A stretch of 64,000 nt of DNA from Sphagnum compactum (GCA_965153455.1 OZ234494.1:6758001-6822000); one strand, 5' to 3'; positions 12,401 to 55,800 are shown, counted from the stretch's first letter. Program-made: numbers and translations. Notes: a model not told the origin generated them from the sequence alone.

Positions 12401-12675
12401 CTCTCATCCGAGACGGTTGCTCGAGAAAGCTGCTGCTGCTGCCGCAAGTGACGCAAGTACTTTCCGAATCCAGAAAACTTGCTTATGCCGCCTCGACTCC
12501 TGGCAACAACGAAGGTGCACGCCACAAAGCAGCACTCCCTATTCTTCACATTGCTTGAAAATCTAGAACCGCTAGTGGTGAAGGAAGCGGAAAAGCCACC
12601 GCCGTTGCTGTTACTGCTACTGGGAAGTGGCACTAGAGGAGGAACACGAATCGCTGCAATTCCACTCCTGGCCAT
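9463..12675 (-). CDS. Predicted chloroplast-targeted single-pass membrane protein of unknown function, ~374 aa, 10 exons
   Basis: Exons 12675-12379, 11646-11599, 11464-11296, 11158-10974, 10806-10704, 10566-10497, 10380-10302, 10133-10081, 9805-9769 and 9546-9463 join in phase (1125 nt, ends AAAAQFAR*). Ser/Arg-rich transit-peptide-like N-terminus, a coiled stretch (LAAAEAEAEALRKELAARR), one hydrophobic helix (RRLLISVGITVLAVGLAF) and a helical C-terminal domain. The last intron needs a GC donor. Confidence 0.82.
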
Positions 12676-12848
12676 CGCTGTTGGATCTTCTGCACCAGCA
12701 AAGGAACACTTCGTCCCCTGCACCAGCGCGCGACACTACTGCGATGGCATTGCACGAAGGGGGTTTTTCTTTTTTGTTTCCCTTGCGGGCAACGAATGCT
12801 GAGCGGAAGGAAAAAAGCGCTTGCGAAAAATAGTGGCTCCGCGTTGAG

Positions 12849-12856
12849 CCACGTGG
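12849..12856. promoter_or_regulatory. G-box (CCACGTGG) upstream of the predicted plastid-protein gene
   Basis: Perfect palindromic G-box ~175 bp upstream of the ATG at 12675. G-boxes are common in light-regulated plant promoters, but function here is inferred. Confidence 0.4.
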
Positions 12857-13059
12857 TGGTTAAGATGAGCGGAGACGAAAGGGTATTACCCGTGCACTTC
12901 TGTACATACCCGTCGGTTCTATAATGCTTCTGGGGATACCTTAAAAGTATTTTAATTACATATTCTATGATCACAATTAAAAATCATGTTTTAATACTTT
13001 ATTCAGGTTCTTTTTTAAAAATTAAAAAAAAATTAGATGTACACTAATAAGTACTCTCA

Positions 13060-13560
13060 GTTCCTGTCAAGTTCCCAATATGTTCTCTAGGTTCCCAATG
13101 TGTTCCCCAAGGGTGTTCCCAATATGGTTTGGACTCTTTTGTGAAGAGAAATTTCATGCAGCCAATGGGAAGGCCCCAAGCATGCAACTCAAGGTGCCTT
13201 GCATTTTTTCCTTTTAAGTTTGGGGGCAGTTTGGGGAAGGTTTTTTTTCACTTTTCCCTGGTTCCCACTATGTTCCCTTTAAGTTCTCACTGGGTTCCCA
13301 TCAGGTTCCCAATGTTTTCCTCAACATATTCTCCATAGCACCTCACTTTTATTGCAAACGCTTTGGCAAATGTTGTCTTCCTTTCAGGTATATAGGTGGG
13401 CCAAATGGGAGAAACCCTATACTTCAAAAATAGAACCTTCTATGTTGGGGAGCCTCAATAGTTTCAATGTTTCCGAGTGATGGGCCAATCAAATTGGCTC
13501 CATGCAAAGAAAATAATTTGAACTTGAGATGCACCTCATCTAATTAATAGGAGAGGTCAA
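13060..13560 (+). repeat. Dispersed repeat family (GTTCCC-rich), copy 1
   Basis: Shares AATTTCATGCAGCCAATGGGAAGG, GTTCCCAATGTG, GATGGGCCAAT and CTAATTAATA in the same order with the copy at ~18024-18430. Confidence 0.7.
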
Positions 13561-13758
13561 TAAATCATCATGCCTACTTCATTTCATATGTGCCAATTAA
13601 TTTGTTGCTTTATCTGGCTTTCTTTTGGCAAGTTAGGTTTAATTAATATTTCAAAATAAGATGATTGTGATTTTTTCATGGGTTTTTCTTGTGATCTTTC
13701 ATTTTTTATCCTGGACCCCCTCGTCTCAGTGATCACCTTCAAACAAAGAAATCTTCTA

Positions 13759-16386
13759 CAGTGCATGACACCTAAAGGCGACCTGGAAAAAAGTTTGGCG
13801 GCCAAATTTGGGCCAAAAATTTCAGCATAAATCCGAGGAGTTTTTTGAATTTGGGTTAGGGGATGTAGGATTAGGGTTATGGAGTGGCGCGGCCTCTGCT
13901 CCTTCTGGCGGGCCCGTGCATAGGCATGCACAAGCCCATACTATTTCGTCTTCACCCACATCTAATTCGCAGACAGTATTGGCAACCATGGGGAGACTTA
14001 ACAAACGAAAGCAGCAGCTCAAGAGACTGGCTGAGGCTAGGCAGGCACGTCGCGACAAGGATGAGTCTGGACGCGAGGAGGAGGAGGAGGTGACTGTGTT
14101 TGACGGCGAGATAATCGTTGTTGTTGACGTTGACGTGCTTAGCGAGGACGCTGTTTGGCATGAGGAAGAGCTTGAGTTTGAGGAGGTGGAAGAGCCTTGC
14201 GAGGACGAAGCGGAGCAGGCGCAGGGACGGTTGGAGGAGTTGCGAGTCCAGCTGAAGAGCAAGCGGCCTACTCATTACGTGGGGAACTCGGAACGCTCAA
14301 AGCGCCGGCGTCACCAGAAGTAGAGGAAGGCAGCTGTTGGGACCAAGAAGCTGACCTCGTTCTTTGCGCCTGTCGCCAACGGTGACAGTAGCAACGAAGA
14401 CGACGAGCAGCAGGACACTAATGACGATAGTAGTGAAGACGAAGAGGAGGCGACCTTGAACGCCGCATGGAAGGATTCGTAGCGCCTTACGGACGCAATC
14501 GCTTTTCTTGAGCAGCAAAGACAGAAAGCTGTTCAAAAGGGTGAAAGTGTCGTGCATTCGTTACGGCGATATGCTGTCCTAGCTTACCTTCGCCTTGTTA
14601 AGAATGGAAAGAAGCGGCAGTCGGCCAGCGCAATGACGGCAACAGTCATAAACGGCAAAGGTGCGTACTGCGCGAAGGCAATCCGAAATTGGGCTAACGC
14701 CTTTCTGCGTTCGGGTGCCATTCCCGTGTCAGAACGTGGAAAACATAAAAAATTAAGATGTTTCCTTCGGGATGAGGACGTACGAGAGAATATCGACACC
14801 TACCTTCGAGAAAACAAGTTTGAGGTGCGCATCCACATTTTGACAAAGTACATCAACGAGGAGGTCTTGCCAGACCTTGATGATGGGCTCTCTGTGAAAT
14901 TGTCCGAACACATTGTTATTCGGTGGATGAAAATTTTCGGACACAATTACCGAAAAGCCACCAAAGGAGTGTACACGGACGGGCATGAACGAGACGATGT
15001 TGTTACTTACCGTGGACAATTCCTCGCAAAAATGGCTGAGCACGAAAAGCGGATGCCAATGTTCACCGATGATTGTTCGGACGTCATCTGGCCCAACCTA
15101 CAAAATGGGGAGAAACCGCTAATTTTCGTCACACATGACAAATCCATATTCCACGCATTTGATGGCCAGGGAAGGCAATGGCTTCCAGCTGGCGAGCAGC
15201 CTTTGCGCAAAAAGGGAGCTGGTCTGGCTATGCATGTCAGCGACTTTCTCGCTGATGTCTGCGGACGTCTAACACTTGCGGACGGCAATGTAGCCACGAA
15301 CGACGAATGTGCGAAAGAGGCCTGTGAGACCATGAAGCTTGGCAAGAATTACGACAGTTGGTGGACAATCGAGGATCTTGCCAAGCAGGTTGTTGAGAAG
15401 CGGTACCCATTTTCGAACGTCGTTTACCGAATGTTCAAGCGCTTTTCGCATTTGATAATGCCACAAGCCACGCTGCGTTCACGGCCGACGCACTACGGGC
15501 AAAGCAAATGAACGTGGGCCGCGGCGGCAAGCAACCACAGATGTGGCCTACGACTTACGGCAACGGGATTGTTCAAGAAATATGCTTTCCACCCGCACAT
15601 CCACCACTTCTATATGGGGAGCCCAAGGGCCTCAAGAGCGTTCTCGAGGAGCGTGGTCTTTGGCAACCTGGGCTCCGACTTGAATGCAAGGATCAAAAAA
15701 ACAATCCGTGCAAAGATGGAAAGGCCTATTGCGCGCGCAATGTTATGGCAAGTCAACCAGACTTCAAAGCCCAGCGCTGCCTGTTGGAGGAGTTGCTTGC
15801 AGAACGCGGTCACTTGTCCAATTTTTTACCCAAAATTTCACTGCGAGTTCAACTACATCGAGAACTTCTGGGCAGCAGTGAAGCGGCGCACACGGGACAA
15901 TTGCGACTATACTTTTCCGGGGTTGTGCAACGCAATCCCGCGCGCTCTTGCAGATGTTCCAATTGTGGAAATCCGTCGATACGTGCGACGTGCGATTAGG
16001 TATATGGATGCATACCGGACTGGGCTTATTGGGAAAGGAGCCGAAGTTGTCGTTAAAAAATCCCGCTCCCATCAACGAATTCCGCGCACCATGTTGGAGA
16101 ACATTGACTAAGCCATAGCAGGGTTAGGGGTTATTTAGCCCTAACCCTTAAGCTCCCTATAAATCCTTGTGGCCAAATATGGGCCGCCCCAGCCAAATTT
16201 GGACAAAAGTCATCAATTTCGACCAGCAATATCTCTGCCAAAAAAAAAGATTTTGACAAACGGGTTGTGTAACTTTGTTCAACATGTGAAGTACTGCATA
16301 AATACGTCGAGTTTTTGGGGTTACACGTTGTGTGGGAAGAATATTTAAGCTCGACATTTGGGGTCACCTTTAGGTGTCATGCACTG
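13759..16386 (+). mobile_element. Full-length IS630/Tc1/mariner-superfamily DNA transposon (2628 bp), 25-bp TIRs, TA target-site duplication
   Basis: Left TIR CAGTGCATGACACCTAAAGGCGACC (13759-13783) and right TIR GGTCACCTTTAGGTGTCATGCACTG (16362-16386) differ by 1 mismatch. TA flanks both ends (13757-58, 16387-88). A DDE transposase remnant lies inside. Confidence 0.93.
13988..16111 (+). pseudogene. Inactivated DDE transposase (~707 aa when repaired)
   Basis: ATG at 13988 and TAA at 16109-16111 are in frame. Interruptions: TAG at 14321 and 14480, a -1 frameshift at ~15400 and a +1 frameshift at ~15817. The repaired product contains GVYTDGHERDDV, FVTHDKS (D1), LFAFDNATSH (D2) and [16 protein letters not shown] (E). 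Confidence 0.9.
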
Positions 16387-16864
16387 TAGGAGTTTCAAAA
16401 GTGCAAAATGTCATCAATTTTTGAGTCAAATGATCACATGGGGGTTTGCCATCCAATGTTTTCTTTGTCAATTTTGTGATGTACCCATATTGGTGATCAT
16501 CCAAGCAAAGATATAGCCAAATTGGGCTATAAATGGCATAATAATTTTAAAAAAAGAACCCTTCTATATTTTTGGCTACCCATTGGAACCAAATGTCAAA
16601 ATCTGATTATTGTTATTATTATTATTATCATTTTGAATTTTCCTGCGTTATCTTTTTTAAAATTATTGTGATACGTGGCTGGTACCCACCAAGTATGAAA
16701 TCTATAAGGTCCCAAACTCTATGGTCAAGAACTTACAAACCCATTGGACGTGTTTGAGGTCTTGTGCAGGTCTTGGTGCGGGGTCTTGGATATCTGTTCA
16801 TCCTGCCATCCCATGCTTTCATCTGTTTTCAGATGTTTTTTTTACAATGTTGCAAACCAGGTTA

Positions 16865-17520
16865 AGCCTCCCCATCCTTGGCTCTTAGTCTAACACATTA
16901 CATTTGTGGTTAGTTGTTAAATGTTGTGTGGATCCATTTTTCCCATTGTGCCCATGGTGGGGAGAGGATTGTATCACATGATGTTGTTTGGAATGTTTTT
17001 GCGTCCATTGCACAAGACTCTAGGTTTCACGTCTTATGGGAGCAAACCCAAGTTCTTTCACTATCTTAATTTCAATTTTCTCATTGATGGTTGACATTGT
17101 TTTGTCGGTTGATGCCATTCACTAATTGATCAATGTCCTCATTGTCAATTTCACTCGAGTAGTCTTGGTATCACAAACGGCTCTTTCTCATGGGGTGGTG
17201 GTGATTGTGACGGTTTAGGTGAAAAAAAGATTTTATTGTGATTGTTACCTGATGAACATATTTCTTCTTCATGCCATAGAGGTTTTTGGGTGTTTTCATT
17301 GATAATTTGACAACTTTTTTCATTAGTGTTAACATGATGACGTGACCAACAAAGGGCACTGAAGGTTCTTCTTTATCAATGTTACATTCTTTTATAGATA
17401 GAGAGTGTCCATAGCTTTACAAGAAAGCACAAGTCGCCTCCATCTCGAGGTGAGTTATTATTGTAGACGAGGGTTCTTCTAAATTTGAAGTTTTATCAAG
17501 CTTACCTCCCCTTTCTTTAG
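16865..17520 (+). mobile_element. Decayed 3' portion of an RLE-type (CRE-like) non-LTR retrotransposon
   Basis: Piecewise translation gives HCAHGGERIVSHDVV (CCHC-type Zn knuckle), VFASIAQDSRFHV, VDIVLSVD..LI.V.I (PD-(D/E)xK-like) and AIEVFGCFH. Many stops and frameshifts. Confidence 0.65.
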
Positions 17521-18023
17521 TTGACATGTTTCATGCAACTAGTGAAAGTTTTGATATTTAACGGTTCCTTACTTCCGTGTGGGACGCCTCTTTTGGGTTG
17601 TCTACTTGCATAGACTTTGGTTGTTGCCCTTTGTTTCTTTTTCTTGCCCTTTCTTGGGTGCTTTCTTTTTATGAAGTTTGACAAGTTTTCATCACTTTCA
17701 AACTTGTGCTGAGTATTCTGCAATCTTTTACAATATAATTATCCTCAATATACACTAATAGCAAAATTTCATGGGTTTATTTTATGTTGTGTTGTAATCA
17801 TCATGCAATATCCTCAATATATCGGGCCTAAGCAAAATAATGGTATCCTATATAATATGTTGTTATGTATTATGCAATATTTTGCAATGTAATTATCCTC
17901 AATATACCCTAAGCACAATAATTTTTGATGGGTTTCTTTGCATTGTAACAATTTTATGTCCCCAAATTTCTGCCCTTGCCATTAGCCCAAGCCAAAAATG
18001 GTGACAAACAGTTTTGAAAACAA

Positions 18024-21517: not shown

Positions 21518-22843
21518 TTAGGGAAGCAACAGGCTAGGTGCAAATAAGTATCCAGTGCTGCTCGGAGCACAGCTTTGTGAGCATAGATGGAAGTCAGGCA
21601 ACCAGTGCCATGATTTCTTGGTCACATTATATGCTAAGAATCTCACACTCCATTTGACAAAAAGAATGACATCGTCCTCACATCCCTCAGGATAAGGGTT
21701 AGGTCTTTGAGCGGTGCCAGGGCTTGCAGGGCTTTTAGATCTACCATGGTTGCAGAGAGTTGCTTCGAGCAAAATGTCCACGACACTCCATCTCAGTGTT
21801 TCTTGATCAAGCTCCCAGATGCCTATGTTGCTGGATTTGTCATGCTGATTGTGGAGGTAAGCGCCTACCAGGAAGAGATGACCCGGTCGGCCTGCGAGGC
21901 TCGGACCTCGAATCTCGGCCGGCAAGGCTACCCTAGAACGGCTCCATTCTTCGCTTTCGACATGGAATGCATGAAGCTGGTAAGGTCGGGAGGTCAAGCA
22001 ATACATAACCCCTTCGCAAACAACAGAACAGCACACAGATCTGATGGCAAAACCGACCAAAGTGCGGAAATGGCTGGTCAGAAACGACGTGAAGGGGTCC
22101 AAGAAGTTCACTAGCGTTTCGTGGGAGCTCCAAGATTGAGAAACGGAGTCGAACACAAAGGCGATCAGCACTTTCTGTTCTCGTTTACCGCCGGCCTCGT
22201 GTTTGGTAACCTCGCCAACGATGACGAGCTTGTAAGTTCCTGCGTACCTGTCCACGACAATGCCTGCAACCGAGACCAAGCTGGTGGCGGGATCCAGATC
22301 CGGAGGCAACGCCACATCTCTCCAAAACCGCGACAAAGGGTTACATACCACAAGTCGGGTGGGCGTGAACCCTTTGTTGAGGGATCTCCATCCGGCTCCA
22401 AGGCAAATCAATCCATCAGCGGCTGCAAGAGGAGATTTGTTATCCAGAGCAAAAGGCAAGAACCCAAGCGGCAGGCTATGCCATTTGCAGAGATGGCAAT
22501 CATAAGCTAATCCCACGGGTCCAGGATCGTTTCCGAAAGTGAGGAACCACTTCTGGGGTACCACATCAGACTCAGACTCACACAAACGAATAAAGCTCGA
22601 TGTCCGCAGCTTAATTTTCCATCTCTTGCAAACACATTGCATTCTCAGCAAACTCTGCAGCGGCAGCCTTGCAAGCACACGATCCAGCACATCTTCCGGT
22701 AGCGACTCCCACACCCCCACCTCATCCATAACGTTCTGCTGCTCGGCATGCCCATCTGTTCCTCCTCCCCCTCCTCCTCCTATCTTGGTCGCACTTCCAT
22801 CATCACTCACAATACCCAGACGCGTAATCCACATCGCAGCCAT
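21518..22843 (-). CDS. Intronless F-box protein with a C-terminal beta-propeller (kelch/FBA-like) domain, 441 aa
   Basis: F-box motif WESLPEDVLDRVLARLPLQSLLRMQCVCKRWK, followed by AAADGLICL, VVCNPLSRFWR, YKLVIVG and a C-terminal FAPSL, as in plant F-box/kelch-like proteins. Confidence 0.92.
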   Translation of the reverse strand: MAAMWITRLGIVSDDGSATKIGGGGGGGTDGHAEQQNVMDEVGVWESLPEDVLDRVLARLPLQSLLRMQCVCKRWKIKLRTSSFIRLCESESDVVPQKWFLTFGNDPGPVGLAYDCHLCKWHSLPLGFLPFALDNKSPLAAADGLICLGAGWRSLNKGFTPTRLVVCNPLSRFWRDVALPPDLDPATSLVSVAGIVVDRYAGTYKLVIVGEVTKHEAGGKREQKVLIAFVFDSVSQSWSSHETLVNFLDPFTSFLTSHFRTLVGFAIRSVCCSVVCEGVMYCLTSRPYQLHAFHVESEEWSRSRVALPAEIRGPSLAGRPGHLFLVGAYLHNQHDKSSNIGIWELDQETLRWSVVDILLEATLCNHGRSKSPASPGTAQRPNPYPEGCEDDVILFVKWSVRFLAYNVTKKSWHWLPDFHLCSQSCAPSSTGYLFAPSLLLP

Positions 22844-23148
22844 TGCAACACAACTACTTTTTGTCTATCTCTGTTCCCCCCCCCCCCTTCTCTACACAAC
22901 CCAACTTCGTCAAAAGGGCACACGAACAAAAAAAAAAAACAAAGAAAACCAAAACTGTAGCAACAGCAGCAGAGCACATACAAGAGATACCAAACGGGAG
23001 GAGAAGCAACGGTATGCGCTCCAAAGCAAAACTCTGAATGCACAGCACAGCGAGACGACAAACGGGGCATGCGCGCACCACAACAGAAAGCGCTACGACA
23101 GAAAACACCAACTTTCTCACCAAACACAAATACGTAAAAGAGCGGACG

Positions 23149-38439: not shown

Positions 38440-38649
38440 ACAAATTTGCTTCATCACATGGTGATGCATTTTCCTTCACCATCTGAAATCTTGAACTCCA
38501 TATTTGTGAGCAAATAGTTGAGATTTACAATGTCAAAATGCTTATTGTCTATGAGAAATAAGTGTCAGGAGTTGTACCTTTCCTAGTATCCAAATTTCTG
38601 AAGACATCAATGTAACCACCAGCCAGAGATCTGAAGAGTTGCAAAAGCC

Positions 38650-39777
38650 ATGAACATTAGTGAAACAGCATGGAATCAAGTGCTGGAAGGTATCTTGCTG
38701 GAGAACCTACCAGTTCCTGTGATCTGTTTGATGAGATGTGTGTGCAAGAAATGGAACTCCTTGATTTGCAGTAGAGCAAGGGTAGTAAATCCTAGTAAGG
38801 TCAAGGAGAGACCTTACCTGGTGTTTCCATTTGTTGAGCAAAGTAGTGCTACGCTTGCAACTTACAGTCCAAGTTTGAGCAAGTGGTATCATCTTCCTCT
38901 CTGCAACTTGAGGCCAAGCTTGCCTCAGCTTCATCTTTGGAAGCCATGGGGTGACATAGACCTGATTGCAGCAGATGGGGGGTTGCTTTGCTTCATGATA
39001 GGATTCACAACTCCTGAGAAAGATGTGAAATTTGTAGTCTTGAACCCTTTAGCCAACACATGGAGACAGCTTCCACCTTTCCCCCAAAACAGACGTTCAA
39101 AGCCCCCATCAGTTTGCGGAATGCATATGGATAGAAGCTCAAGATCTTACAAGCTGATTTTGGCTGGGCATCTTCTGATGTTTGGAGAAGAAGGGCACAT
39201 GAGAACATATTTGTATGATTCATCAACTCAAGCATGGAAGCTTGGTGGGGATTTGCCCCATGAGGTCTATGGTGTTCAAAAGCAATGTACCTTCTGGGAT
39301 GGAAGCTTTCATTTTGTGGAATGTTGCACAAACCAAGTGCGAGCATATGACGAATTGCATAAGGTGTGGAAGAATGTTCTTCCCATCTTGCCTCCCATTT
39401 TTCGCAGCCCGACTCTTGTGGAGAGGTATGGGCACATTCTGATTGTGGGTACCATTGCCAATTCTGGGAGCCTGGAGATTATGGAACTCAACAAAAGCAG
39501 AACAAAGTGGAGAGAGATTGAGAACATGCACCTGCAGGGTGCTGTGATTGAATGCTTCTTCCACAGAGATGGACCAGATCCAAGAAATACACCGTTAATC
39601 TGTGCTGGTCAAGGAGACCTCATTTTTGTCTCAAAGTCAGGATCTAACTCTGTCATGCTGTTGGATGTTTCTCAAGGAACTTGGACCTTTCTGCCCTGTA
39701 GACCCTGCAGCAGTATGAACACTTTAGATGTGAAAGCCACGTTTACATTCAATCCTACATTTGCTGCCGAAGTCTGA
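38650..39777 (+). CDS. Intronless F-box protein with a kelch/FBA-like C-terminal domain, 375 aa
   Basis: LENLPVPVICLMRCVCKKWNSLI (F-box), IAADGGLLCF, VLNPLANTWRQLPP, YKLILAG, YDSSTQAW and C-terminal FNPTF. Confidence 0.9.
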   Translation: MNISETAWNQVLEGILLENLPVPVICLMRCVCKKWNSLICSRARVVNPSKVKERPYLVFPFVEQSSATLATYSPSLSKWYHLPLCNLRPSLPQLHLWKPWGDIDLIAADGGLLCFMIGFTTPEKDVKFVVLNPLANTWRQLPPFPQNRRSKPPSVCGMHMDRSSRSYKLILAGHLLMFGEEGHMRTYLYDSSTQAWKLGGDLPHEVYGVQKQCTFWDGSFHFVECCTNQVRAYDELHKVWKNVLPILPPIFRSPTLVERYGHILIVGTIANSGSLEIMELNKSRTKWREIENMHLQGAVIECFFHRDGPDPRNTPLICAGQGDLIFVSKSGSNSVMLLDVSQGTWTFLPCRPCSSMNTLDVKATFTFNPTFAAEV

Positions 39778-41152: not shown

Positions 41153-44100
41153 TCACAGAAAGACCACTGAGTGTTTGATGGCTCCAACTCTGAAGACGTG
41201 TGCACCTGCATCCAGCATGTGACTGCCATCCTCCTTCACTCTACTGAGATGTCTGCAAGGATCAATGCTGAAGACCAGTTCACGCTGTGCCCCTGGACTC
41301 AGGTACACACTTTGGAAATCCAGCAGCTGCTTTAATGGAGCACCATTGACTCCTGCTCGAGGAGGCGACGAGAATAGAAGCACTTGGTGATTCCCACCCC
41401 TGTCGCCCAAGTTTTGCACTATAACGCTGACTGTAAACATGGAGTTCTTACAGGTTCCTGTCCTCCAAGAGAAAGTAGCAACCATTCCCACCCAAGCTTT
41501 AGCCTTATCATGCCTGATTTCTAGCCATGGACTTCAGGAGAATAAGTGCAGATTTTTCCTGTTCACAGCACTGTATGCTTTTTGTTTCTGAACTTTTCCC
41601 ACAATGATGACTTTTAGGTTTTACAAAGACCTGTTCCTATGCAGAATCTCTACAACCAGTATGTTCCTATCCCAAGATCAACATAAAATATCACCTCAAA
41701 TATGGGCAATCAGGTTTGGACATTTCTGCCCTCATAACCCTTAAGAACAGAGGTAAAATCTTATGAACATTGTGGTGGCAAATTGGGGACCATGCCAGAG
41801 TGCTCCATTCTTCACTGAAATGGCAATTGGTCCCAAATGACAAAGATGGAACTTGAGTGAATCCATACCTCTGTCCTTCTCAGAGCACAGAAGCTTGCCA
41901 CTTGAGCCCCCATCAGAACCACACATTTGCTCCTGCAAGGTGGGTACAGTCACAGCAGATGGCGCTGACGCAAATTGGTGTGCAAAGGTTGTGTAGCTTA
42001 AGCCATACCCAAATGGATAGATCATTGGTCCAGTGTGGAACCGATAGGTTCGGCCTGGGTAACCTGAAGAATTGTCTGGCCGCATTCGCATATCTGCCAT
42101 GTCAATGTGTGTGTACTTCTCTGGATACCATGAAACTGGTAGCCTACCTCCTGCACATGTAGATTCACCATGCAAAATCATAAGAATCACTTCGCAATCT
42201 CAAAATGGGTCGTGCTAACAAGCTGTGAACATTCTGCATTCAAAAGGTACACATGTACACTGATGAAATTCTCCACAAAGCTGTAAACCCTAATGCAGGA
42301 GGTTTCCAGACATGACAGTAAAATCCTCCACATTGCTGCTGCAATCTATAATGAGAGACACTTTCATACCTGGATTATGGTCGCCAAAGATGATCTCAGT
42401 TATTGCTTGGCCTCCGGCTTGCCCAGGATAGCCCACCCACAGAATACTTTGAATGCGGCTGTCCGCCTTTGCAAAGGATATGTCTACAGGTCCTCCAGAC
42501 ATGACCACAAGAACCACAGGGCGACCAGGTAGGACACTCCCCGCGACAGCTGAGATCAAATCCTGTTGGTGACCAGGTAGGAGTAAGGTCTTTCTGTCGT
42601 GAGATTCTGCTTCCTGTTCCTGGGTGAGCCCAACTACGAGAACGACAGCATCTGCTCTCGATGCCACTTCTGTGGCATGCGGAATGTGATCAACATCCGC
42701 ACAAGCAGTATCTAGACATCCTGGTGCATAATGAACCTTGTCGTAGTCTCCAATTCCTAACAGTACCAGTCCCTGGAGAGGCGTGATGTACTTACAAGGA
42801 ACGCCTGCATTTAGGAATTAGGGTTTAGGAATCAACACTGGGATAAGAAGTTACATTCCCATTTTGATCCGGGAGATCCACGCAAATTCTTACAGCACCA
42901 GCTGAGGGGAGCTTGAAACAGATGGCATACCTGCGTAGTTCCCAAGCATTACGTGCGACGCATTTGCATTGGGACCAATTACTGCCAACGTCGTCTGTCC
43001 CCCGCGACACAAGGGAAGGGTTTGGTTTCTATTCTTCAAAAGAACAATACCCTGCCTTGCAGCTTCCACAGCAAGCTCCTGATGCGCATCAGAACAAACG
43101 TCCCCTGGACCCAATGACCCATATGTCTGATTTGTCGGTCCGTCAAACATCCCGAGTCGCATGCGCACCGAGAACAGATTGTAAAGCGCTGCGTCTATGC
43201 GCGACGAATTCACTTTGCCCACGCCGATTGCCGATTGAGTGTAGGTTGAAAGGTACGACCCACAATTGAGATCCAAACCTGCGTTCAGTGCGTCAGCCAC
43301 AGCATCCTCAGCGGTGAAAGCGTAATCAATCGATTCGTGCATGACCTTCACTGCATCACAGTCAGAAACAATGTACCTGCAGGCCCAACGAGCTCGCCCA
43401 CACACATATCAGGTTTCGTCACAAGCAGCATTTGCAAGTTCACTGTAGATCCATGCGATATATATGATACCTACGATATGGAACGAACATACCCACCAGC
43501 TCTTTGAATGGTCTTTGAACCTCTCTAGGAAAATTCACAACAAGGCTGCAAATGTGACAATCTGTGAATCATGCATGTTGTACGCGTACCCATCTAGACC
43601 CCAAGTATTCCGAACAGTTTCTGTGAGGAAGTTGTAATCAGCACACGTCGGGACCCCATTCACTCGATTGTAGGAGCACATCAGGCTGCTGGATCTGCCG
43701 TCTTCAACGCAACTCCTGAAAGGCGGATTGTACGTGTCTTCCAGATCTTGTATGGTGACCTGCAGCAGCTTATATCAAAGCAACCCAAACATCATTCAAC
43801 GCCGCCGTAGAACGTTCAACAAACAAGCCAAGAATTTCCTTGAGCTGCAAAGCAACGTCTGGTACATCCTGCAGCTGATCCAGCGAGTTGTGGCCCATGG
43901 GTCCGACTCCGATCGAGCACCCAATGTCGTGTACAAAAATCTAGAATCATGTCCTGAGCTCGCAGCTTTGTTTCTTAAGAAAGAAGCTAGAGAATTATAC
44001 ATCATTTCTCTACAAAGCTCAAACAAGATCCACAGCTGCGAGTTTCTTCGAGTACATGAGCAGCGACTAAGTACTGCTGCGTGGAGGAGAAGCTGCAGCA

Positions 44101-45066
44101 TCATCATGCAACATTACCTTAGCATTCAAATGAAACCGGTCTCTTCCCTTCCAGTTATCCAGATCGTAGGCTGTGAAATGCTTGCAACAGGCTGAAACCT
44201 TCATCCTCCTAGGACCTCCTGCCGGCGCGGCACCGCCGTCCGCAACAATCACCTGCTGGTGGTTCAGGGATGGTGAAGAAGAAGAAGTTGCAGTCGACCG
44301 CGCTGCCGCATCATAGCTGCTGCTGCTGCTGCTGCTGGACTGCAGATCTCCCTCTTGCATGCCTCTGATGAAGTGCGTTGCGTAGGAGCTTGTGAGAGCT
44401 GGATCTTCTCCAGCGGTTTCTTGTACCCTCCCCCATCTAGGATCTCTCACTATGTTGATCACCGGAGACCAGTACGTCAATCCACCTCTTCCGACGTTGA
44501 AGAAAGCCCGTGCTTCCGTTGACACAGCCTGCACATTGTTATTGCAGACACACGAGATGACAATCCTGATTCCTCTCATGATGCGCGGTCTCAAAGATGA
44601 TGCAAGGGCTGAGAGCTTGAGCAGTACTGCATGATTTTACCTGGCCGATCCGGTTCCACAGGGTTCTGTTGAAGGAAGCCGCCGTCAAGATAGGCAGAGG
44701 GAAGCTGGTGGCCTGCGGAACAGGACCTCCGAAAGACACATGCGCCACGCCATGCAAACCTTCTTGCCACCAAGTATAGCTGGGGATCCCAAGTCTGGGA
44801 ACAGCCGCTGCGTTGTTGACGAGCTGTTTGATCTTCTCTGGCATCGTCAGTCGCGAGACTAAATCTCTCACGCGAACTTCGTCAGGAAGGGATGTGTCAC
44901 AGAACGTCATTGCTCGCAGACTTGGATCTTGCTCGAAATCGCAACCGTATAACAACTTCTGCATGTGCAGCAGTTCCGGCGATGGATTCACCAGCTGCAG
45001 CAGACCCATTGCGCTCAGGAGTCCGATGACCATGCAGACTGCCTGCCGCCATTTGGTCGATCCCAT
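41153..45066 (-). CDS. BXL: Beta-D-xylosidase/alpha-L-arabinofuranosidase, glycoside hydrolase family 3 (BXL family), ~824 aa, 7 exons
   Basis: Exons 45066(or 45111)-44641, 44528-44118, 43759-43590, 43376-42931, 42804-42370, 42150-41869 and 41457-41153, all in phase. Signal-like hydrophobic segment, [25 protein letters not shown], catalytic [16 protein letters not shown] and a C-terminal Fn3-like domain. Confidence 0.95.
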
Positions 45067-45756
45067 TTGCTTCTGGTCGACGTTCCGTTGCAGCTGCAGC
45101 GAGCTATTCATGAGGAACCAACCGATTCTGCAGCAGGCTACCTACGTATCGCACCTTTCTACAATGCGGCAGAGAGAGACGCACTGCACACAATTACGCT
45201 GTTCCTGGTAACAACGTCTCCTCCTTGTTGAATCTAGTTCCAGAGTGCTGATCGCCATGCAGGTCTCGAGTCATTGACGCACGCAAAAAGTGACACGCTC
45301 TTGAATTAGTTCGATAGCAGATAGCTGGAGAAGTTTTATGACCAGGACTTCCTGCTGCAGGCGAGAGTCTATGTTCTGATTGCGTTGAACGACAAGGTGA
45401 TCATCAGCAGCTGCGTCTTCAAATCTTTTCGATCCTCCACGGTTTTTTCTATCCCACGGTAAGCTTCTTTTTTTCCTACGAGAGACAGAGACAAAGAGAG
45501 ACCGAGAGAGAGAGAGAGCGATCGGGAGATCTACAGATCTACAGACAGTTATGTCAAGCCGCCAGCAAAATTGCGCTAGCTTCTAGTTCAATACTAATGC
45601 CAAGGGAATATCGGTGCAGCACACAAGAATTGCGAGTCCAAGAATGGAACACTTTGAGAAATTTGCGAGTACTCTACCTGATTTTCCTCTACTTGCCACA
45701 GAGTTTGACAAAAGAATCGAGAGAGATTCGACATGATCACAGACAGCAGCGCTCAT

Positions 45757-48080: not shown

Positions 48081-51000
48081 TTAGATTTGATCTCTACAGA
48101 AAAGCTCAGAACAGAAAGACCCAGATATAATAGCTTGTCTAGGGAAAATGTGACTTACGACGACAATAGGGTGGTGGGCTGTCCCAGCTATGATGGTATG
48201 GGTCCCAATATCAAGAGTCCGCAATCCATCCACCTTCACAGTCCCCAAATCAGTACAAAAATGCACCAGAAAGATGACTTCCCTGTCAGAGCGTGAATTC
48301 AAATGAATTCTTTGGAGTCCCAACAACTGCTTCAGTGGAATGCCATTGGAGCCTGATAATGGGGACTTTGAATATAACAGCACAGAGTGATCACCATCTA
48401 TTGGGCCTTCATTTTTCACCCGCACCTTCAGTTTGAAATTTAAATCCTCACAAGCATCTGTTGAAAGAATCAATGTTTAGTTTCCTAGTAGTAGGAGTTC
48501 AGCAGATAGTGATTTTGAAAGGGTGAAATAAGTTCTGACCACAGGACTGGATAGAATCTAAAAGTCTAGCTCAGTAATTAGAGGAGATATTTTTGGTCCA
48601 ATCAAAGGTATCTGGACCTTTGTCCTCACCTAAAATGACAACTTAATTGGCATTTTATATTCATAGGCATTGAAATTAGGATTACCTGACTCCTTGTCAG
48701 CTAATCTTCATAACATGAATCAAGTAACTCTCCCCAAAATTGAAGATCTATACAAAGTCAGTAACAAAACTTCATTCTCTGACCTGTATCTTCTGTTAAG
48801 CATTCCATTGCCATCAATGAGTTGGATGCATCCTTATGACAGAGCTGCTGATGTAATGTTGGTGCAGTTATGGTAGAGGGTGCTTCCACAATCACATGTG
48901 AGAAATGAGAATAGCTCAGCCCATAACCAAATTCCCAAATTGGTGATCCTGTGAAAAAACGGTGAGTCCGACCTGGGTAACCAAGAGACAGATCTGGGCG
49001 CATCTGCATGTTTGACATGTCCATTTGTGTGTAATTCTCGTGGTACCATGAAAGAGCTAATCGCCCCGCTGCAACAACATGACACCAATCAAAACCCTCT
49101 ATCCAAACATTCCTTTCAATAATGGGCAATTTCCTTCAAACAAATCTCAATCCATGACCACATCCTTGGGCTTGACACAGAAGAAACTAATTTACCTGGA
49201 TTCACATCACCAAAGATCACTTCTGCTATTGCTTGCCCACCAGCCTGTCCAGGATAACCTGCCCATAAAATACTTCCAACTCGATCATCCTCTTTCATAA
49301 ATGAGACATCAACAGGCCCACCTGACAATATCACGACCACAATTGGCCGCCCACTAACAGCATCGACCACAGTTCCTGTTGCATGCCAGGAAGGAGTAGA
49401 CTTTCACGGTCCCGTCCTTCTGATTCTTGAGCCTGGCTTAATCCAACAAACAGGACAACTGCATCTGCTTCTGAAGCAGCAGTTGCAGCTGATTGAATTA
49501 GGCTCCTATCTTCACAAGATGCATCAGCACATCCAGGTGCATAAATTACATTCTCCCCATCACCCCCAAAAAGTGCTGTTATTCCATCCAAGGGACTGAT
49601 AAATTTACAGGGAATGCCTGCAGAATCCAAAGAATGATAGTAATGAGTAGATATCTTTATGATTGTTGTCTAGATGAGTCTACCATTGTCATTGTTCACA
49701 CACACCAAAAGACTAAGCTGTGGCAAAAACTTGGAAGAAAAAGAATTTGAAATAATAAACTAATCAACCAAAGGTACAGGACATGTGACATTTCAAAATC
49801 CACTATTTGAGCACAATATGCTTTACCATTCCTACCTTCATGTGCCTTGGGAGAGCAAAAATCACTAATAGTTGCAGTTATACCAGCTACACAAATTACT
49901 CTAAGTTGACAAGATCCCAACTTTGGGGAAGCAGTAGTAGAGCCCAATAATACCTTCATAATTACCAAGCATCTCCTGAGTTGAGTTCCCATGAGGACCA
50001 ATGACAGCCAGCTTGAACCTTTTTATTTTCTTCCATGGAAGTGTACTTCTGTCATTTTTCAAAAGAACAATGCTTTGTCGAGCTGCTTCAAGAGCGAGAT
50101 TTTGGTGATCAGTGGTGCAAACATCTGATGGTCCCAGTGAGCCAAATGGAAGGGTCCCAGGGTCTCCATCAAACATCCCCAATCGCATCCGCACAGCAAA
50201 CAGGTTGCGCAGATGCATGTTTATGAGTTCCTCCCAAATTAATCCCTTGTCTAGTGCAGCCTGAGCATGATTTAAAACTGTTGTTCCACAATTAAGGTCC
50301 ATACCTGAAATATTCATCTCAAGCATCAGTTTGGTTTGATGGTGACTATCCCTAAGTATGTGTTACCTACCTTCTCGAGTCCAAATTCGAAGTGATCAAA
50401 GATCACACATACACCAGAACCCAACTACAGAATCAAAGTGTCAAATTTAAGCAAAACCATGAGTACCTGCCAACATAACATAAGAGACTGCATCCTCTGG
50501 AGTAGGTGCATAATAGATGAAATCATGAATCAGTGCCACTGCGTCACAATCCGACATTATGTACCTACACCCAAATACCCATCTCTGTGAACCAAAGCAA
50601 TCACATTATGAGAAAAATGTAATGCATAGAACCTGACACCCAATTGCATCTCAACATTCCATAAAAGGTGATCCATCTTGAACTCTTTGCCTTAAACCCT
50701 AAATCCCAAACCATAAGACCACAAACAATTGAGGTGATGGCATACCCGTTAAAGCCCCAACTATTGCGGACAGTGAGAGTGAGGAGCTCGTAGTGAGTGC
50801 ACATAGGAATTCCATTGAGACGATTGTAGGAACACATGAGGCTACTGGACTGCCCCTGTATCACACAGCTTTTGAAAGGTGGGTTATATGTGTCCTCCAA
50901 ATCTTGCAGTGTCACCTGACCACATAAAAATTGAGACCAGTTCCAGATATAGTCCATTAGCTGGAAGCACAATAGAGGCTTCCAGACCATTCTGCTTCCT

Positions 51001-52810
51001 CATCAAAAGGGATCCACTCCCAAAACAGTTTCCTTAAACAGGATTATTTCAAGCTCTAGAACTGTGCCATGGAAACCAAACCAGACACATACAATTTGTA
51101 CTTAACCTTGACTTCATAAATTGCACACTACCTGAAGGAACTTATATTGTGCACGGGCATTGCATTTCGTCTCTCACATAGATAATTATGTGGACATGAT
51201 ATGTCCATAGAGCACAACAAATGGTGTACATTTGGCCATACATTCAAGAAGGCAGAAGACTCAGAAGGAAAATCAGCCACAGAAACACACAAACTGGAGG
51301 CCTGTGCACTGGGTTTTAAACAGATCACAGCTCAAGGAGCAAACTGCTGTTGATTAGGGAAAGTGTCTGCTGAGGAGCCAAGAGAATGGAACTCACCTTT
51401 GCATCAAAATGGTTGCGGTCATAGCCTTTCCAGTTGTCTAAATCATGAGCCGTAAAATGCTTACAGCATGCAGAAATCTTTAACCGTTTGGGGCCCCCAA
51501 TACTAAGGGTCTGGGAACCATCATAATGTCCCTCTTGCAGACCTTTGACAAAGTAGACCGCATATGTACTGGTGAGCTTTGGATCCTCCCCTGGTGTTTC
51601 TTGTGTCCTTCCCCATCGAGGATCCCTGACTATGTTTATGTTTGGTGACCAATAGGTCAATCCTGACCTTCCTTGATTGTATATTGCTCGCCCTTCTGTT
51701 GATACTACCTGCAAGACAGAGCAAGGAAGGAAAAGAAACAGGAAAATGGAAGTAAGAGGGAGCTTTCTTGGCCACCTTACTGATACCAGAAATGCAAATG
51801 CAGAGAGAGAGCGCATTCGAAAATCAAGCATAAGAGCATCTCTAGCAGTGCTCAATATGTGACCTTGCAAACATATATCTCACATCCAAGTATAGTTATT
51901 TCGTTTTCTAACCCCACCAACAAAACTAAAACTAGGACTGCAAATAGTTGGGAGACTACTAATAGCAAACCACTTGGACCAAACATTATGATTGGCCAAT
52001 CAGAAACAGGGAGCTGCAATCATATCATATTTATTACACTCTTCTCTGGCAGGTTAAAATTGTTGGGCCAAGACCATTTTGCGTAGCCAAACCAGCATGT
52101 TTTGACTTTTCTTCATCCAATTTTAAATTGTCGGGTTGCATACTGAGCACTGTTGGAGTTACTCTAAGATTTGCTAAAAGATGCAAAAGAATGCTGCATC
52201 GCAGAAGACGGCAAAGAAGAAAATGCAAAAGGTGATAGCAAGATGAATTGGAGAACACAAACAAATGTTGGAGCGAGATGATACGTATGAAGAGAAAACA
52301 ACTGGGAAGAAGATAAAGGATTCTTGCCTGACCGATGCTGTTCCAGAGCGCAGTGTTGAAAGATCCCGCCGTCAGAATTGGCTGCGGGAAGCTGGTGGCA
52401 GCCGGTACTTCCCCTCCGAAATTCACAGACGGACTGATCGCAACACCATGCAAACCCTCGCCCCACCACTCGTAAGCCGGTATTCCAAGCCTGGATACAT
52501 TGGCCGCCGTATTCACTAGCTGCGTGATCTTCTCTCGCACAGTTAACCTAGATATCAAATCCTCCACGCGCTCCTCATCCGTCAACGACCGATCACAGAA
52601 GGGCAAAGCCGAAATTGCCGTATCCCCTTTCGGATCGCAAGCATATGACTGCTTAATTGCATCACCACTAGTATAACTCGTGCTCTTCACCAAAACAAAA
52701 TCCAAAACCAAAACCACAAGAAGCAAACCACGAAAACGAACAAGACGACGACGCGTCCACGACAACAATAACGACGACGACGACGACGACGTACGGCATT
52801 TCACACCCAT
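48081..52810 (-). pseudogene. BXL: Second GH3 beta-xylosidase paralog (8 exons) with a frameshift in exon 6; disrupted allele, pseudogene or sequencing error
   Basis: Exons 52810-52328 (GC donor), 51708-51397, 50915-50746, 50564-50467, 50304-49954, 49617-49196, 49068-48784 and 48457-48081. Motifs [24 protein letters not shown] and YIMSDCDAV are intact. Exon 6 is 422 nt (out of phase), and the frame switches at ~49371 (QQEL / VVDAVSGRP). Confidence 0.85.
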
Positions 52811-55800
52811 TGCTGGAACAACTTTCCTTCAAATAAAACCAAAATTGTTGATCGCATTTTCTTCAGAGCCCAAAGAATAGAGCAATTTTGGAGCAGGTTA
52901 CCCTTTCTCTTCCCCTTCTTCTCACCCTTCTCCTCCCCTTCCATTTACGTCAATGGCGCAACGGAGGATGCAAAACGAGAAGAGACAAACAAGCTAACAA
53001 ACTCAAAAACAAAAAAACAAAATTAGTTTGATTCTTAGCAATCGGCAACAGCACCCACATCCCATTTGCAACGTCACTAGGTATGTGTGGGGCAAAGGTC
53101 TAAACTTTTGTGAATCTAATATTACATATTACTACACATATTTTCATCAAGAGCACATACAATTACATTAGAGGCCCATAATCATCTTTGATTTCACTTC
53201 TTATTTGTCTTCCTCATTAAATGTTTGATCATATCTTTATGACACTTTTTTATGTTCAAATAATCTTTGAGCTTGAAATGTGTTCCAAGCTTAATGGCTT
53301 TTGGGTGTCACATTTGTAGAGAAACATTAGGCACTTCCAAAGCCAAAGTTTATAAAGAAACACAAGCATTTCTCAAAATTCTCTAGCTATCATTAAGCCA
53401 TGGGAGTTGTCAAGGTGATTGATAATCTCTATGGCCAATGAAATTACCAGTGTTGGGCAGTTCTTCGGAAACTTGGGTAATAATCGATGATTTTGGTTTC
53501 GATTATAATACATATCTTACCTTGACCTTTATTCAAATACTCGAACTCAAACCTTACCTTAAGACCCGCCCTTATCTCGAATTGATTTTCAACCCTGGAA
53601 CTGGATGATCGTATGTTCAATAAAATTTGATGACCTTGCACCAACGAATGTTTTCCAAAATTCTAAGGTTCACTTTTTTTTCCTAGCCCTAAGATTTAGG
53701 GTTTTGCAGATAGGCCTCAGCGACGGGAATGAAGAAGATGGGATCACGCACACGATGGCGAGGCTGGCATGGTGAGGCTGGCAGAGCTTGTCTCTGGGGG
53801 TGGGGGAGGGGGGAGTGATGGAAAGAGGGAGAGAAAGAGGGGGGGGGGCCACTATTTGGCTTCCCAACAATTGTGTAGCATTTTGATTAGATACTAGAGA
53901 GGTTTAGCAGTAGGAGTGGAATTTCTCTCTCTTTTTTTTCCTTTTCTCTTCCTTCATTGTTTACAGATCAGAGCGCAACATACTTCTCTTTTTTTCTTTT
54001 ATTTTCGATGTTTGTGCACTCTCAGGTCTCTCTCTCTTTGCTTCAAGGACGAGACAAGATCTGGTCCACATCGAAAAAATTGTCTAAAGTGAAGCTCGAG
54101 TCGAGTCTCTGGACTGTCTCTCGTTTTTTTCTCGTCTTCGTCGTTCACAGAGAGCGCAAGACACTTTTGCTCGTTTTTTTTTTTGGGTGTGCTTTTTGTG
54201 CTCTCATCTGAGGTCTTCCCTCCCACTCTTGCTTGAGGACAAGATCTGATCCACATAGATAATGATCTCGATTTGACCAGCAACGATTGCTTCTTGTCAA
54301 TTTTTGTCACCGCCATTCTCTATTTCTGAAGTTTAATCAGCAGGTTGACATACTATGGTTGGCTTGACTTGGAGATTGAAGTTACAGTTGCTGTAAGTTC
54401 TGATCCATTGGCAATCCAGACACTAGAGAGGTGCTCCTCTGGAGTCTCTTCCAAATCGTTGCATTCTTTTTTCACTCTGGCTACTTTTTCGACTGTGGGT
54501 GCGGCTTCATTGGCCATTTCATATCTGCCGGACCATACATTGTTCACCTACATGCGTACTACTAGTTCGAGGTAATGACATTGTCCTCGCTACCTGCTTG
54601 CAACTTTGATAAATTGGCAGTTGTGTGATCTTTGTTTTTTTGTTAGGTACTTGTATACAACCAGGCAAGGGTTTGGTGAGAAGCTACTGACTCGAGTACA
54701 ATCATGAAGAAATTAATAAGATGTAGATTTTGAAATATTGATCTTCTCTGGCAATTTGGGGGCAATTTGGGATGTGGCTTCCATTTGGACAGCTTTGTTT
54801 TTTCCCCCTTTTTCTTATTCTTCTAAAACACGACGAAGGAATAGGGCTTGTAAGCACGGTGTATGGAATTGTGCTGGGAGAAGTCTCAGTGTACATCAAA
54901 CCCTAATCTCAATTTTCTTTTATCAGATCAGAAAATCAATCATCAAATTATTTTTTGGATTATTTTGGTGCCTTTTGCTTGCGGCACTTCAATGTTTGCA
55001 TGCCATTTGATCAGGTCCATTTTGGTGGCATAGTGAGTCTAATGATTTGGCATCCTTGCATAATTGGAACATTGAGGAGTTTTGTGATATGTCATAATGT
55101 TTAGGTCATATGTTTGTTTAGCAAAATTGAAGGTTTTTGTGATGGTCTATCTAATGTCAAATGCCAAAAAACACAAATTCTAAACAAATAAAACTCAAAC
55201 TCAAAAATTCACGTCATTTTCTTGTGAGTTTTTGAAGTTTGAACTTCTCCTTTTGGAGAAATTTGAAATTTCGCCAGTAAAAAGAAAATTGGGGCAGGAC
55301 GGCTGGTCATCTGATGGTGCCACTTTTCAGGCCAGAGTGAACCAGCACCATTGCAATGCCAGCCTTTTTATTTGCTGCCTATATATATATAGCCAAAATA
55401 GCTATATAAAAAATTATAAGTGCTAAAATCAAGTGCTTTTTGAAATTTTCAATCACCAGAATTTGATCGAATCTTAAGAGAAATAATCACTAGATTTCTT
55501 TACATGGTTCATGTATGTAGCCCAAAATGTAGAAGGATACGATTAGAAATCTACTTTCAAAAATTTAGCTTGTAGCCAATTTTGGCTAAATCTGTATGTG
55601 TTCATCACCACTTTGGCTACGTCACAAAATTGACCCCAAATAATAATAATAATAATAAAACACTGACCAGCACCCACATTGCTTGAGTCAGGCCTTTCAG
55701 TGCCCATATTTCAACGTAGGAAAATGATAAATTTGGATACTGTAGTACCTGAACGACCCCCTATCCTCGCTTTCAGTGGTATCCACAAAGTAAAGACATT

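What the first reader, a model, noticed from the sequence alone, without database searches (positions are those of the whole stretch)
13759..16386. Atypical DD(~134)E IS630/Tc1/mariner transposon in a plant genome; possible horizontal acquisition
Seen: intact TIRs and TA TSD. The repaired transposase has D (15137), D (15454) and E (15860), with 134 residues between D2 and E, including a Cys-containing insert ([19 protein letters not shown]). It also has a long acidic/basic N-terminus and a GVYTDGHER motif. Established: canonical spacings are DD34E (Tc1), DD34D (mariner) and DD39D (plant mariner). From recall, not a search: DGHER plus PKFHCExNxIE transposases occur mainly in fungi and some other non-plant eukaryotes. 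The element is intronless and GC/CpG-rich, unlike the eroded AT-rich TEs nearby. Inference: a young, poorly described family, possibly acquired horizontally. This is the best candidate for a novel system in the window.
Basis: partly seen in the sequence, partly recalled or inferred. Interest (0 to 1): 0.75.

Follow-up and report, generated by a model that had tools for sequence, protein, structure and literature searches.

The report
Dead long-spacer mariner-type transposon in moss
This is a real but broken copy of a cut-and-paste jumping gene in a moss. It belongs to a large, mostly fungal group of transposons whose cutting enzyme carries an extra 100-residue piece, and it probably entered mosses from another kingdom, although no direct donor was found.

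Summary
The structure is confirmed: 2,628 bp, 25-bp inverted ends, TA on both sides. The seven long copies found in this genome share one intronless 707-codon frame with D384/D490/E625 (DD134E). All seven are broken, and one polyA RNA run put no reads on the frame, so 'young' overstates it.

The long spacing is not peculiar to this copy. It marks a large clade: 2,402 clusters at 50% identity, spacing 111-202 in 134 of 136 complete triads. Members occur in fungi, oomycetes and a giant virus. Environmental members are TA-flanked elements of 2.5-3.2 kb.

The fold is Mos1/Sleeping Beauty-like, with about 100 extra residues after the second Asp: a weakly SAP-like helix pair and an optional four-cysteine module. 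It fails the Sailor (DD78-111E) motifs, and I found no paper naming it. Repbase and Dfam were not searchable.

The moss family groups with Rhizophagus, Albugo and soil elements (99.9/97) at only 52-59% identity. Horizontal origin is likely but no donor is shown, and fungus-like Tc1 elements in moss are already known. This scan had not noted the clade before.

The parts
13757..13758 (.). left TA target-site copy
   Evidence: 32 of 33 distinct flanks of family ends in this genome end in TA
13759..13783 (+). left terminal inverted repeat, 25 bp, begins CAGTG
13988..16111 (+). broken, intronless transposase gene (707 codons in the majority of seven copies)
13988..14482 (+). acidic/basic N-terminal arm; stops at 14321 and 14480 in this copy; largely low-confidence in the model of an intact relative
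14483..14965 (+). helical region, probably two helix-turn-helix units that bind the inverted ends (inferred from the model and its match to full-length Mos1)
14966..14992 (+). GVYxDGHER linker motif; sits where structural alignments to the Mos1 and Metnase catalytic domains begin, the place of mariner's WVPHEL linker (Mos1 motif and numbering recalled)
   Evidence: DGHE in 111 of 136 complete triads
15137..15139 (+). first catalytic Asp (THDES motif; HDKS in this copy)
15454..15456 (+). second catalytic Asp (FAFDNATSH); in the model of an intact relative it directly follows a core beta strand
15472..15810 (+). insertion of about 100 residues between the second Asp motif and the helix before the last core strand; includes KGLKxxLEERG (15625-15657) and QPDF (15754-15765); only weak SAP-like matches
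15682..15738 (+). optional four-cysteine module, C-x7-C-x5-CC in the majority (third Cys changed to Tyr in this copy); zinc binding is inferred, not shown
15860..15862 (+). catalytic Glu in PKFHCExNYIE; aligns with Sleeping Beauty's PDLNPIE
16362..16386 (-). right terminal inverted repeat, 25 bp
16387..16388 (.). right TA target-site copy; a contig of organism C joins 13758 to 16390 with one base between, the length expected of an empty site with a single TA

Best explanation
This is a dead copy of an autonomous cut-and-paste DNA transposon of the IS630-Tc1-mariner (ITm) type, from a large lineage with a long second-Asp-to-Glu spacer (about DD110-200E). When active, the 707-residue transposase bound the 25-bp inverted ends through its helical N-terminal region (inferred). 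It cut both ends with a two-metal D384/D490/E625 RNase H-fold site (fold modelled; chemistry from established ITm knowledge) and inserted at TA, duplicating it (TA flanks shown; one empty site seen). The extra 100 residues form a small folded subdomain outside the catalytic core. I think it is most likely a helix-loop-helix DNA-contacting module, with an optional Cys4 zinc knuckle in its loop that stabilises it but is not needed for catalysis (inferred). One founder entered an ancestor of several related mosses, most likely horizontally from a fungus or a fungus-associated soil eukaryote. It made at least 7 long copies and at least 9 internally deleted copies here, was methylated at CG and CHG, and decayed.
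For: Ends and target. One shared frame and triad in 7 copies, which diverge star-like (pairwise 90.6-93.3% among the five full ones), mostly by C>T at CG/CHG. The model of an intact relative (pLDDT 85.5) matches Metnase, Mos1 and Sleeping Beauty catalytic domains at Z 16.6-18.1 (192 of 201 residues at 2.5 A for Metnase); the next best match is Z 11.1. Clade size and spacing. 17 of 17 non-moss loci that I picked for visible inverted ends have TA outside both ends. The Cys module is lost all-or-none (73 of 82 have 3 or more Cys; 8 of 82 lack the segment), and 29 of 187 lack it. Origin: the moss family joins Rhizophagus irregularis P0291, Albugo P0294 and soil elements at SH-aLRT 99.9 / UFBoot 97, apart from other Rhizophagus and Glomus members. 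A search of this genome with a sister-group protein returned 15 matches, all at the same 7 loci, so no older paralogous family showed up. The two plant-labelled database hits do not group with the moss family.
Against: There is no close donor: the moss stem is 0.40 substitutions per site, sister-group identity is 52-59% in the catalytic region, and those relatives are 33-40% GC against 53%. The sister group changed with sampling (an unnamed trio at 0.967), and the tree has no outgroup. Decayed copies in other land plants would be largely invisible to protein searches, so other bryophytes are untested. The SAP likeness is weak (Z 2.2-3.0), with no sequence support. A second near-invariant Asp (QxDF, 97%) lies 32 residues before the Glu, and a profile alignment places it next to Sleeping Beauty's second-Asp motif. 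Zinc binding and activity were not tested.
Confidence: 0.75

Rival explanations
1. Vertical inheritance: the lineage has been in green plants since before mosses split off and was lost or overlooked elsewhere; the burst seen here is a late reactivation.
For: Long moss stem and no donor above 59% identity. The family is shared by at least four organisms (A-D). Unchecked notes report other GC/CpG-rich young DNA transposons in this genome, so composition alone does not mark a foreigner.
Against: No older paralogues in this genome. No plant protein in the moss clade among 23, 88 and the 120 listed (of 768) hits. 52-59% identity to fungal and oomycete elements is high for a transposon separated since the plant-fungus split (inference).
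Confidence: 0.17
2. The clade is already classified: it is a divergent part of Sailor, or a Repbase/Dfam Mariner subgroup under another name, so this is only a new member.
For: It shares with Sailor the GH...P.HCELNPIE end and a helix-loop-helix insert after the second Asp. UniRef labels members 'Tc1-like transposase DDE domain-containing protein'. Rhizophagus and Aphanomyces genomes are well annotated for repeats, so database entries are plausible (inference).
Against: Sailor is defined as DD78-111E, TATA target, GT/CC ends, YLDET and IMDNA motifs. This clade has DD111-202E, TA, CAGTG/TGGT ends, THDES and FxFDN. The Sailor entries from Rhizophagus are a different family, and THDE, HDES, KFHCE, PKFHCE and LEERG occur 0 times in the held supplement (gaps in its alignment can split motifs).
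Confidence: 0.4
3. The true second catalytic Asp is the one in QxDF, giving a near-standard DD32E with a long D1-D2 region instead.
For: That Asp is 97% conserved, and the profile aligns it beside Sleeping Beauty's HDNDPKH motif.
Against: In the model the FxFDN Asp (464 in P0006) directly follows core strand 457-463, as in the RNase H fold, while the QxDF Asp (561) lies in a helix. FxFDNxxxH matches the ITm D-N-x-x-x-H motif, with His 99% conserved.
Confidence: 0.06
4. Assembly contamination: fungal DNA joined into a plant scaffold.
For: Composition unlike the flanks; fungal best hits.
Against: Copies lie on at least 9 different contigs, each with its own TA flank. They show CG/CHG decay. The family is present across its full length in three other organisms whose contigs also cover the flanks.
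Confidence: 0.01

Closest known systems
Sailor (DD82E) superfamily of ITm transposons (Shi et al. 2021, PMC8533490; parts 1-4 and 6 of 6 of the main text read, supplement searched and 2 of 251 parts read; the held supplement is cut and lacks Table S6)
   Same: ITm-type element with a lengthened D-to-E spacer; HCELNPIE-like motif around the Glu; helix-loop-helix insert after the second Asp; patchy range over fungi, stramenopiles and animals
   Different: Spacing 111-202 versus 78-111; TA versus mainly TATA target; CAGTG/TGGT versus GT/CC ends; THDES and FxFDN versus YLDET and IMDNA; DGHER linker, GGKQ and KGxKxxLxERG motifs and a Cys4 module not seen in the Sailor rows read; about 700 aa versus 323-676 aa
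PpTc1 and PpTc2 of Physcomitrium patens (PMC4054914 and PMC7466625, passages read)
   Same: Moss host, CAGT...ACTG ends, TA target, relatives closer to fungal than to plant elements, proposed fungus-to-moss transfer
   Different: PpTc1/2 are 1.6-1.7 kb, 338 aa, DD34E, with intact expressed copies; this is 2.6 kb, 707 aa, DD134E and all copies found are dead
Mos1, Sleeping Beauty and Metnase catalytic domains (PDB 3hos, 4mdb, 5cr4, 3k9j)
   Same: Same core fold (Z 16.6-18.1) and Glu motif
   Different: 13-16% identity; about 100 extra residues after the second Asp and a long acidic N-terminal arm
IS630 family (NCBIfam NF033545) and Pfam DDE_3 (PF13358)
   Same: Best and nearly only family hits
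   Different: All below the curated cut-offs (12.6-42.7 bits versus 100; 19.5-27.2 versus 28.6); no prokaryote member found beyond one 3-kb contig in an archaeal bin

Membership tests
IS630-Tc1-mariner (ITm) group | Terminal inverted repeats and TA target-site duplication | tested here: met
   25-bp ends; 32 of 33 distinct flanks end in TA; one empty site with a single TA
IS630-Tc1-mariner (ITm) group | DDE/D catalytic domain of Mos1/Tc1 fold | tested here: met
   Top fold matches Metnase, Mos1, Sleeping Beauty at Z 16.6-18.1 for a model of intact relative P0006
IS630-Tc1-mariner (ITm) group | N-terminal paired (two HTH) DNA-binding domain | tested here: inconclusive
   Two helical bundles are modelled and align to full-length Mos1 only loosely (rmsd 16.6 over 309 residues); no HTH family hit
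Tc1 (DD34E), mariner (DD34D), plant mariner (DD39D) | 34-41 residues between second Asp and Glu/Asp | tested here: not met
   134 in the majority; 111-202 in 134 of 136 complete triads
Sailor (DD82E) | Spacing DD78-111E | tested here: not met
   DD134E here; the clade touches 111 only at its low end
Sailor (DD82E) | Mainly TATA target and GT/CC first bases | tested here: not met
   TATA in 6 of 33 flanks; ends begin CAGTG
Sailor (DD82E) | YLDET and IMDNA motifs at the two Asp residues | tested here: not met
   THDES and FAFDNA against the definition read
Sailor (DD82E) | HCELNPIEL motif at the Glu | tested here: met
   PKFHCELNYIE
Sailor (DD82E) | Falls inside the Sailor clade in a DDE tree | not tested
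   No Sailor sequence was available to the tree scripts
HvSm (Dupeyron et al. 2020, PMC7325037, section 9 read) | DD34E motif | tested here: not met
Repbase/Dfam Mariner subgroups (names Sagan, ISRm11, m44, Mogwai, Gizmo recalled, from no call) | Similarity to the deposited consensus elements | not testable with these tools
   No Repbase or Dfam here; a paper search for four of six such terms returned 0
SAP domain (for the insertion) | Helix-extended loop-helix fold and SAP sequence profile | tested here: inconclusive
   3 of 10 structure rows are titled SAP domains, all at Z 2.2-3.0; no Pfam SAP hit for 5 stretches; no solved-structure hit

The most novel reading that the evidence does not exclude
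This element represents an unnamed ITm lineage of superfamily rank, beside Sailor, with thousands of members across fungi, oomycetes, animals and a giant virus. It is defined by a DGHER linker, a roughly DD110-200E catalytic domain and an inserted SAP-like DNA-binding subdomain with an optional Cys4 zinc knuckle. It crossed from a fungal or soil-eukaryote host into a moss lineage as a single founder.
Probability: 0.45. Interest if true: 0.68.

Novelty: new variant of a known kind. Interest (0 to 1): 0.5.

Why it matters
ITm transposons are classified by their D-to-E spacing, and the longest spacing I saw in print is 111 (Sailor). This clade runs to about 200 and is large, so current schemes may miss a major branch that Pfam and NCBIfam score below threshold. 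A folded subdomain inside the catalytic domain is unusual for Tc1/mariner enzymes. It comes in natural with-and-without versions of the Cys4 module, which makes its role directly testable, and intact environmental members are candidate new TA-targeting tools. The moss copy itself is dead and about 5 kb from the nearest gene I identified; as a fungus-to-moss transfer it would add to a known pattern.

Tried and rejected
Pfam on the window's four fragments gave nothing significant (best DDE_3 E 0.062).

Vectors and prokaryote sources: viral contigs gave 0 of 48 pattern matches confirmed. Prokaryote genomes gave 1 of 26, a 3,072-bp contig that is almost all element, in an archaeal bin; I treat it as probable bin contamination.

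Plant-labelled hits: the 'Salix' protein nests among Agaricomycete sequences (100/100), and the 'Thalictrum' protein lies on a 1.4-kb contig away from the moss clade. Both are probably fungal contamination (inference).

Cluster look-ups for 20 proteins gave no organism names.

Activity: no intact moss-type frame among 7 own copies or 12 metagenome loci (7 distinct after removing near-identical ones). No polyA reads on the frame in one run, of which about 12% was read.

pN/pS of copies against their majority was 0.46-0.72. I do not read this as selection, because the count ignores the strong C>T bias.

Shared insertion sites: no 80-bp own-genome flank matched any of 11 metagenome loci.

The first IQ-TREE run (71 sequences) timed out without supports. 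The first FastTree run gave a different sister group.

The insertion alone has no clear structural match (Foldseek best E 4.0; VIA best Z 3.0), which does not show that the fold is new.

SRA rows with a small share that I did not lay (organisms E and F, moss metagenomes) are not used as evidence.

Paper searches found no description of this clade. One search was swamped by an unrelated abbreviation and is uninformative. Passages of 10.1101/2025.06.16.659975, PMC11544213, PMC10045372, PMC5751038 and 10.1101/2021.09.26.461848 did not mention such a spacing; their supplements were not read and may hold members.

Full report
1. The observation. The element spans 13759-16386 (2,628 bp). It has 25-bp inverted ends matching at 24 of 25 bases and TA directly outside both. 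The frame from ATG 13988 to the stop at 16109-16111 is broken by stops at 14321 and 14480, a lost base near 15400 and an extra base near 15820. GC is 0.51 and CpG o/e 1.04, against 0.37-0.42 and 0.38-0.40 in the flanks. The window carries plant-type genes: two F-box/kelch genes, GH3 glycosidase exons and a TPP enzyme. The run search lists 'moss metagenome' among holders. The genus Sphagnum comes only from earlier unchecked notes.

2. The family in this genome. A DNA search gave 8 matches at 7 loci: five run from end to end (2,574-2,649 bp), one is split by about 880 bp, and one lacks a right end in the stretch fetched. An exact 20-base end pattern gave 25 matches against 0 for the control, which include 9 internally deleted copies of 450-954 bp. 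These are lower bounds. 32 of 33 distinct flanks end in TA and 6 of 33 in TATA. The majority of the seven long copies is a single intronless 707-codon frame with D384, D490 and E625: 105 residues between the Asps and 134 between the second Asp and the Glu. Each copy is 3.5-5.1% from that majority and has its own stops or frameshifts; 7 of 7 are broken. Most changes are C>T at CG and CHG, and other changes amount to only 0.6-1.5%. This fits one burst followed by methylation and decay (inference).

3. Other organisms. Four runs were laid on 12600-17600. Contigs of organisms B, C and D cover 30 of 30 bins, and their depth is higher at the element's ends than in its middle (several-fold in B and C), as expected from many deleted derivatives. 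One contig of organism C joins 13758 to 16390 with one base between. That is the length of an empty site with a single TA, though the flanks are partly repetitive and orthology is not proven. The polyA run of organism A (about 12% read) put no reads on 13936-16440. Twelve metagenome loci (7 distinct) are 91-93% identical to the majority, all broken. They carry about twice the C>T load but the same 0.6-1.3% of other changes, and their own majority differs at only one non-C>T position among 2,624. So several mosses carry descendants of essentially one founder. Whether it spread before or after they split is unresolved.

4. The wider clade. Named relatives are Glomeromycota (Rhizophagus, Glomus, Cetraspora, Paraglomus), Agaricomycetes, Pezizales and two oomycetes (Albugo, Aphanomyces). 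A profile of 21 relatives found 2,402 clusters at E up to 1e-30 among 1.84 billion representatives. Of 173 aligned sequences (the moss majority included), 136 have D, D and E in the three columns. Their spacing is 76-202, median 134.5, with 134 of 136 at 111 or more, and DGHE is present in 111 of 136. Of 69 non-moss loci I picked 17 with visible inverted ends. All 17 have TA outside both ends, are 2.5-3.2 kb long and begin CAGTG (3), TGGT (13) or a mixed form (1); several carry open frames of 700-800 codons. A structure search of viral proteins gave one full-length match, in Sylvanvirus (E 5e-41, 27% identity). Atlas look-alike clusters are mostly Basidiomycota, then Arthropoda and others (leads only).

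5. Fold and mechanism. A model of intact relative P0006 (119-sequence alignment, pLDDT 85.5) matches Metnase, Mos1 and Sleeping Beauty at Z 16.6-18.1, well above integrases at 11.1 or less. The first Asp lies in strand 361-373, the second (464) directly follows strand 457-463, and the Glu (594) opens helix 593-607. The PKFHCELNxIE motif aligns with Sleeping Beauty's PSQSPDLNPIE. The same alignment places the near-invariant QxDF Asp beside Sleeping Beauty's second-Asp motif, but in the model that Asp is in a helix, so I keep DD134E. The extra residues fold confidently on their own (pLDDT 83.5), with no clear match. Three of the 10 weak rows are titled SAP domains (Z 2.2-3.0), and sequence tests were negative. 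Between two helices sits a Cys module: 68 of 82 parsed rows have four or more Cys and 8 of 82 lack the segment altogether; 29 of 187 lack it in the larger set. All-or-none loss suggests a metal-binding knuckle that is not needed for catalysis (inference). Cut-and-paste chemistry, end binding and dimer assembly follow from established knowledge of Mos1 and Tc1 and were not tested.

6. Origin. In an LG+G4 tree of 32 sequences (picked from the 71; 350 columns), the moss family groups with Rhizophagus irregularis P0291, Albugo P0294, P0288 and L038/L040/L043 at SH-aLRT 99.9 / UFBoot 97, while other Rhizophagus and Glomus members fall elsewhere. A 98-sequence FastTree agrees (0.98). An earlier tree without those sequences gave another sister group. 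The tree is unrooted, the moss stem is 0.40, identity to the sister group is 52-59%, the sister loci are 33-40% GC, and the sister members I could parse lack the Cys module. No older paralogue turned up in this genome. I put horizontal entry into the moss lineage at about 0.8, with the donor unsampled. Composition adds little: unchecked notes describe other GC/CpG-rich young pogo and hAT elements in this genome.

7. What is known. Sailor (PMC8533490) is the nearest named group but fails on spacing, target, ends and both Asp motifs. Its Rhizophagus members are a different family. HvSm is DD34E. Fungus-like Tc1 elements in Physcomitrium and their proposed transfer are described (PMC4054914, PMC7466625; passages). 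[quoted passage not shown] Nine paper searches found no description of this clade. Repbase, Dfam and subscription journals could not be searched, so it may be classified there.

8. Verdict. A real, dead ITm-type transposon copy. Its interest lies in the clade it exposes, a large long-spacer lineage with an inserted subdomain that seems to be unnamed, more than in this copy or in the transfer, which has precedent and lacks a donor. New variant of a known kind; interest 0.5.

Noticed in passing
window 21518-22864 (-) and 38635-39777 (+): Two long open frames encoding F-box/kelch-type proteins.
   Followed up: partly
window about 41700-45150 (-) and 49900-52830 (-): Two tandem, intron-split glycoside hydrolase family 3 genes; one exon confirmed by Pfam, the rest read by eye. 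Their exons are CpG-rich (o/e 0.71-0.81).
   Followed up: partly
window about 58390-60600 (+): Exons of a thiamine-pyrophosphate enzyme, pyruvate decarboxylase-like by eye.
   Followed up: partly
window 13000-13600 and 16440-16610: Very high-copy host repeats on both sides of the element (summed contig depth up to about 31,000 in other organisms); the left one has short GTTCCCA-rich direct repeats.
   Followed up: no
window 13866-13880 and 16120-16148: Telomere-like TAGGGTTAGGG motifs in both subterminal regions; the right one forms a short inverted repeat just after the stop codon.
   Followed up: no
G000:C2:14860911-14861793 (between L006 and L008): About 880 bp interrupt one long copy; not identified.
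   Followed up: no
P0006 residues 300-675, Atlas search: Look-alike clusters include C21orf140-like proteins (PF27940, score 0.92). Human C21ORF140/FAM243A is called a putative DDE endonuclease in PMC11377751 (one passage). A link to this clade or to Sailor is an untested lead.
   Followed up: partly
BFVD entry A0A3G5AK55: An 805-aa member of the clade is annotated in the giant virus Sylvanvirus sp.; a possible vector class, but only 27% identical to the query.
   Followed up: no
L034-L082 moss-type loci versus own-genome copies: Same load of ordinary substitutions but about twice the C>T load in the metagenome copies, hinting at host differences in methylation or deamination.
   Followed up: partly
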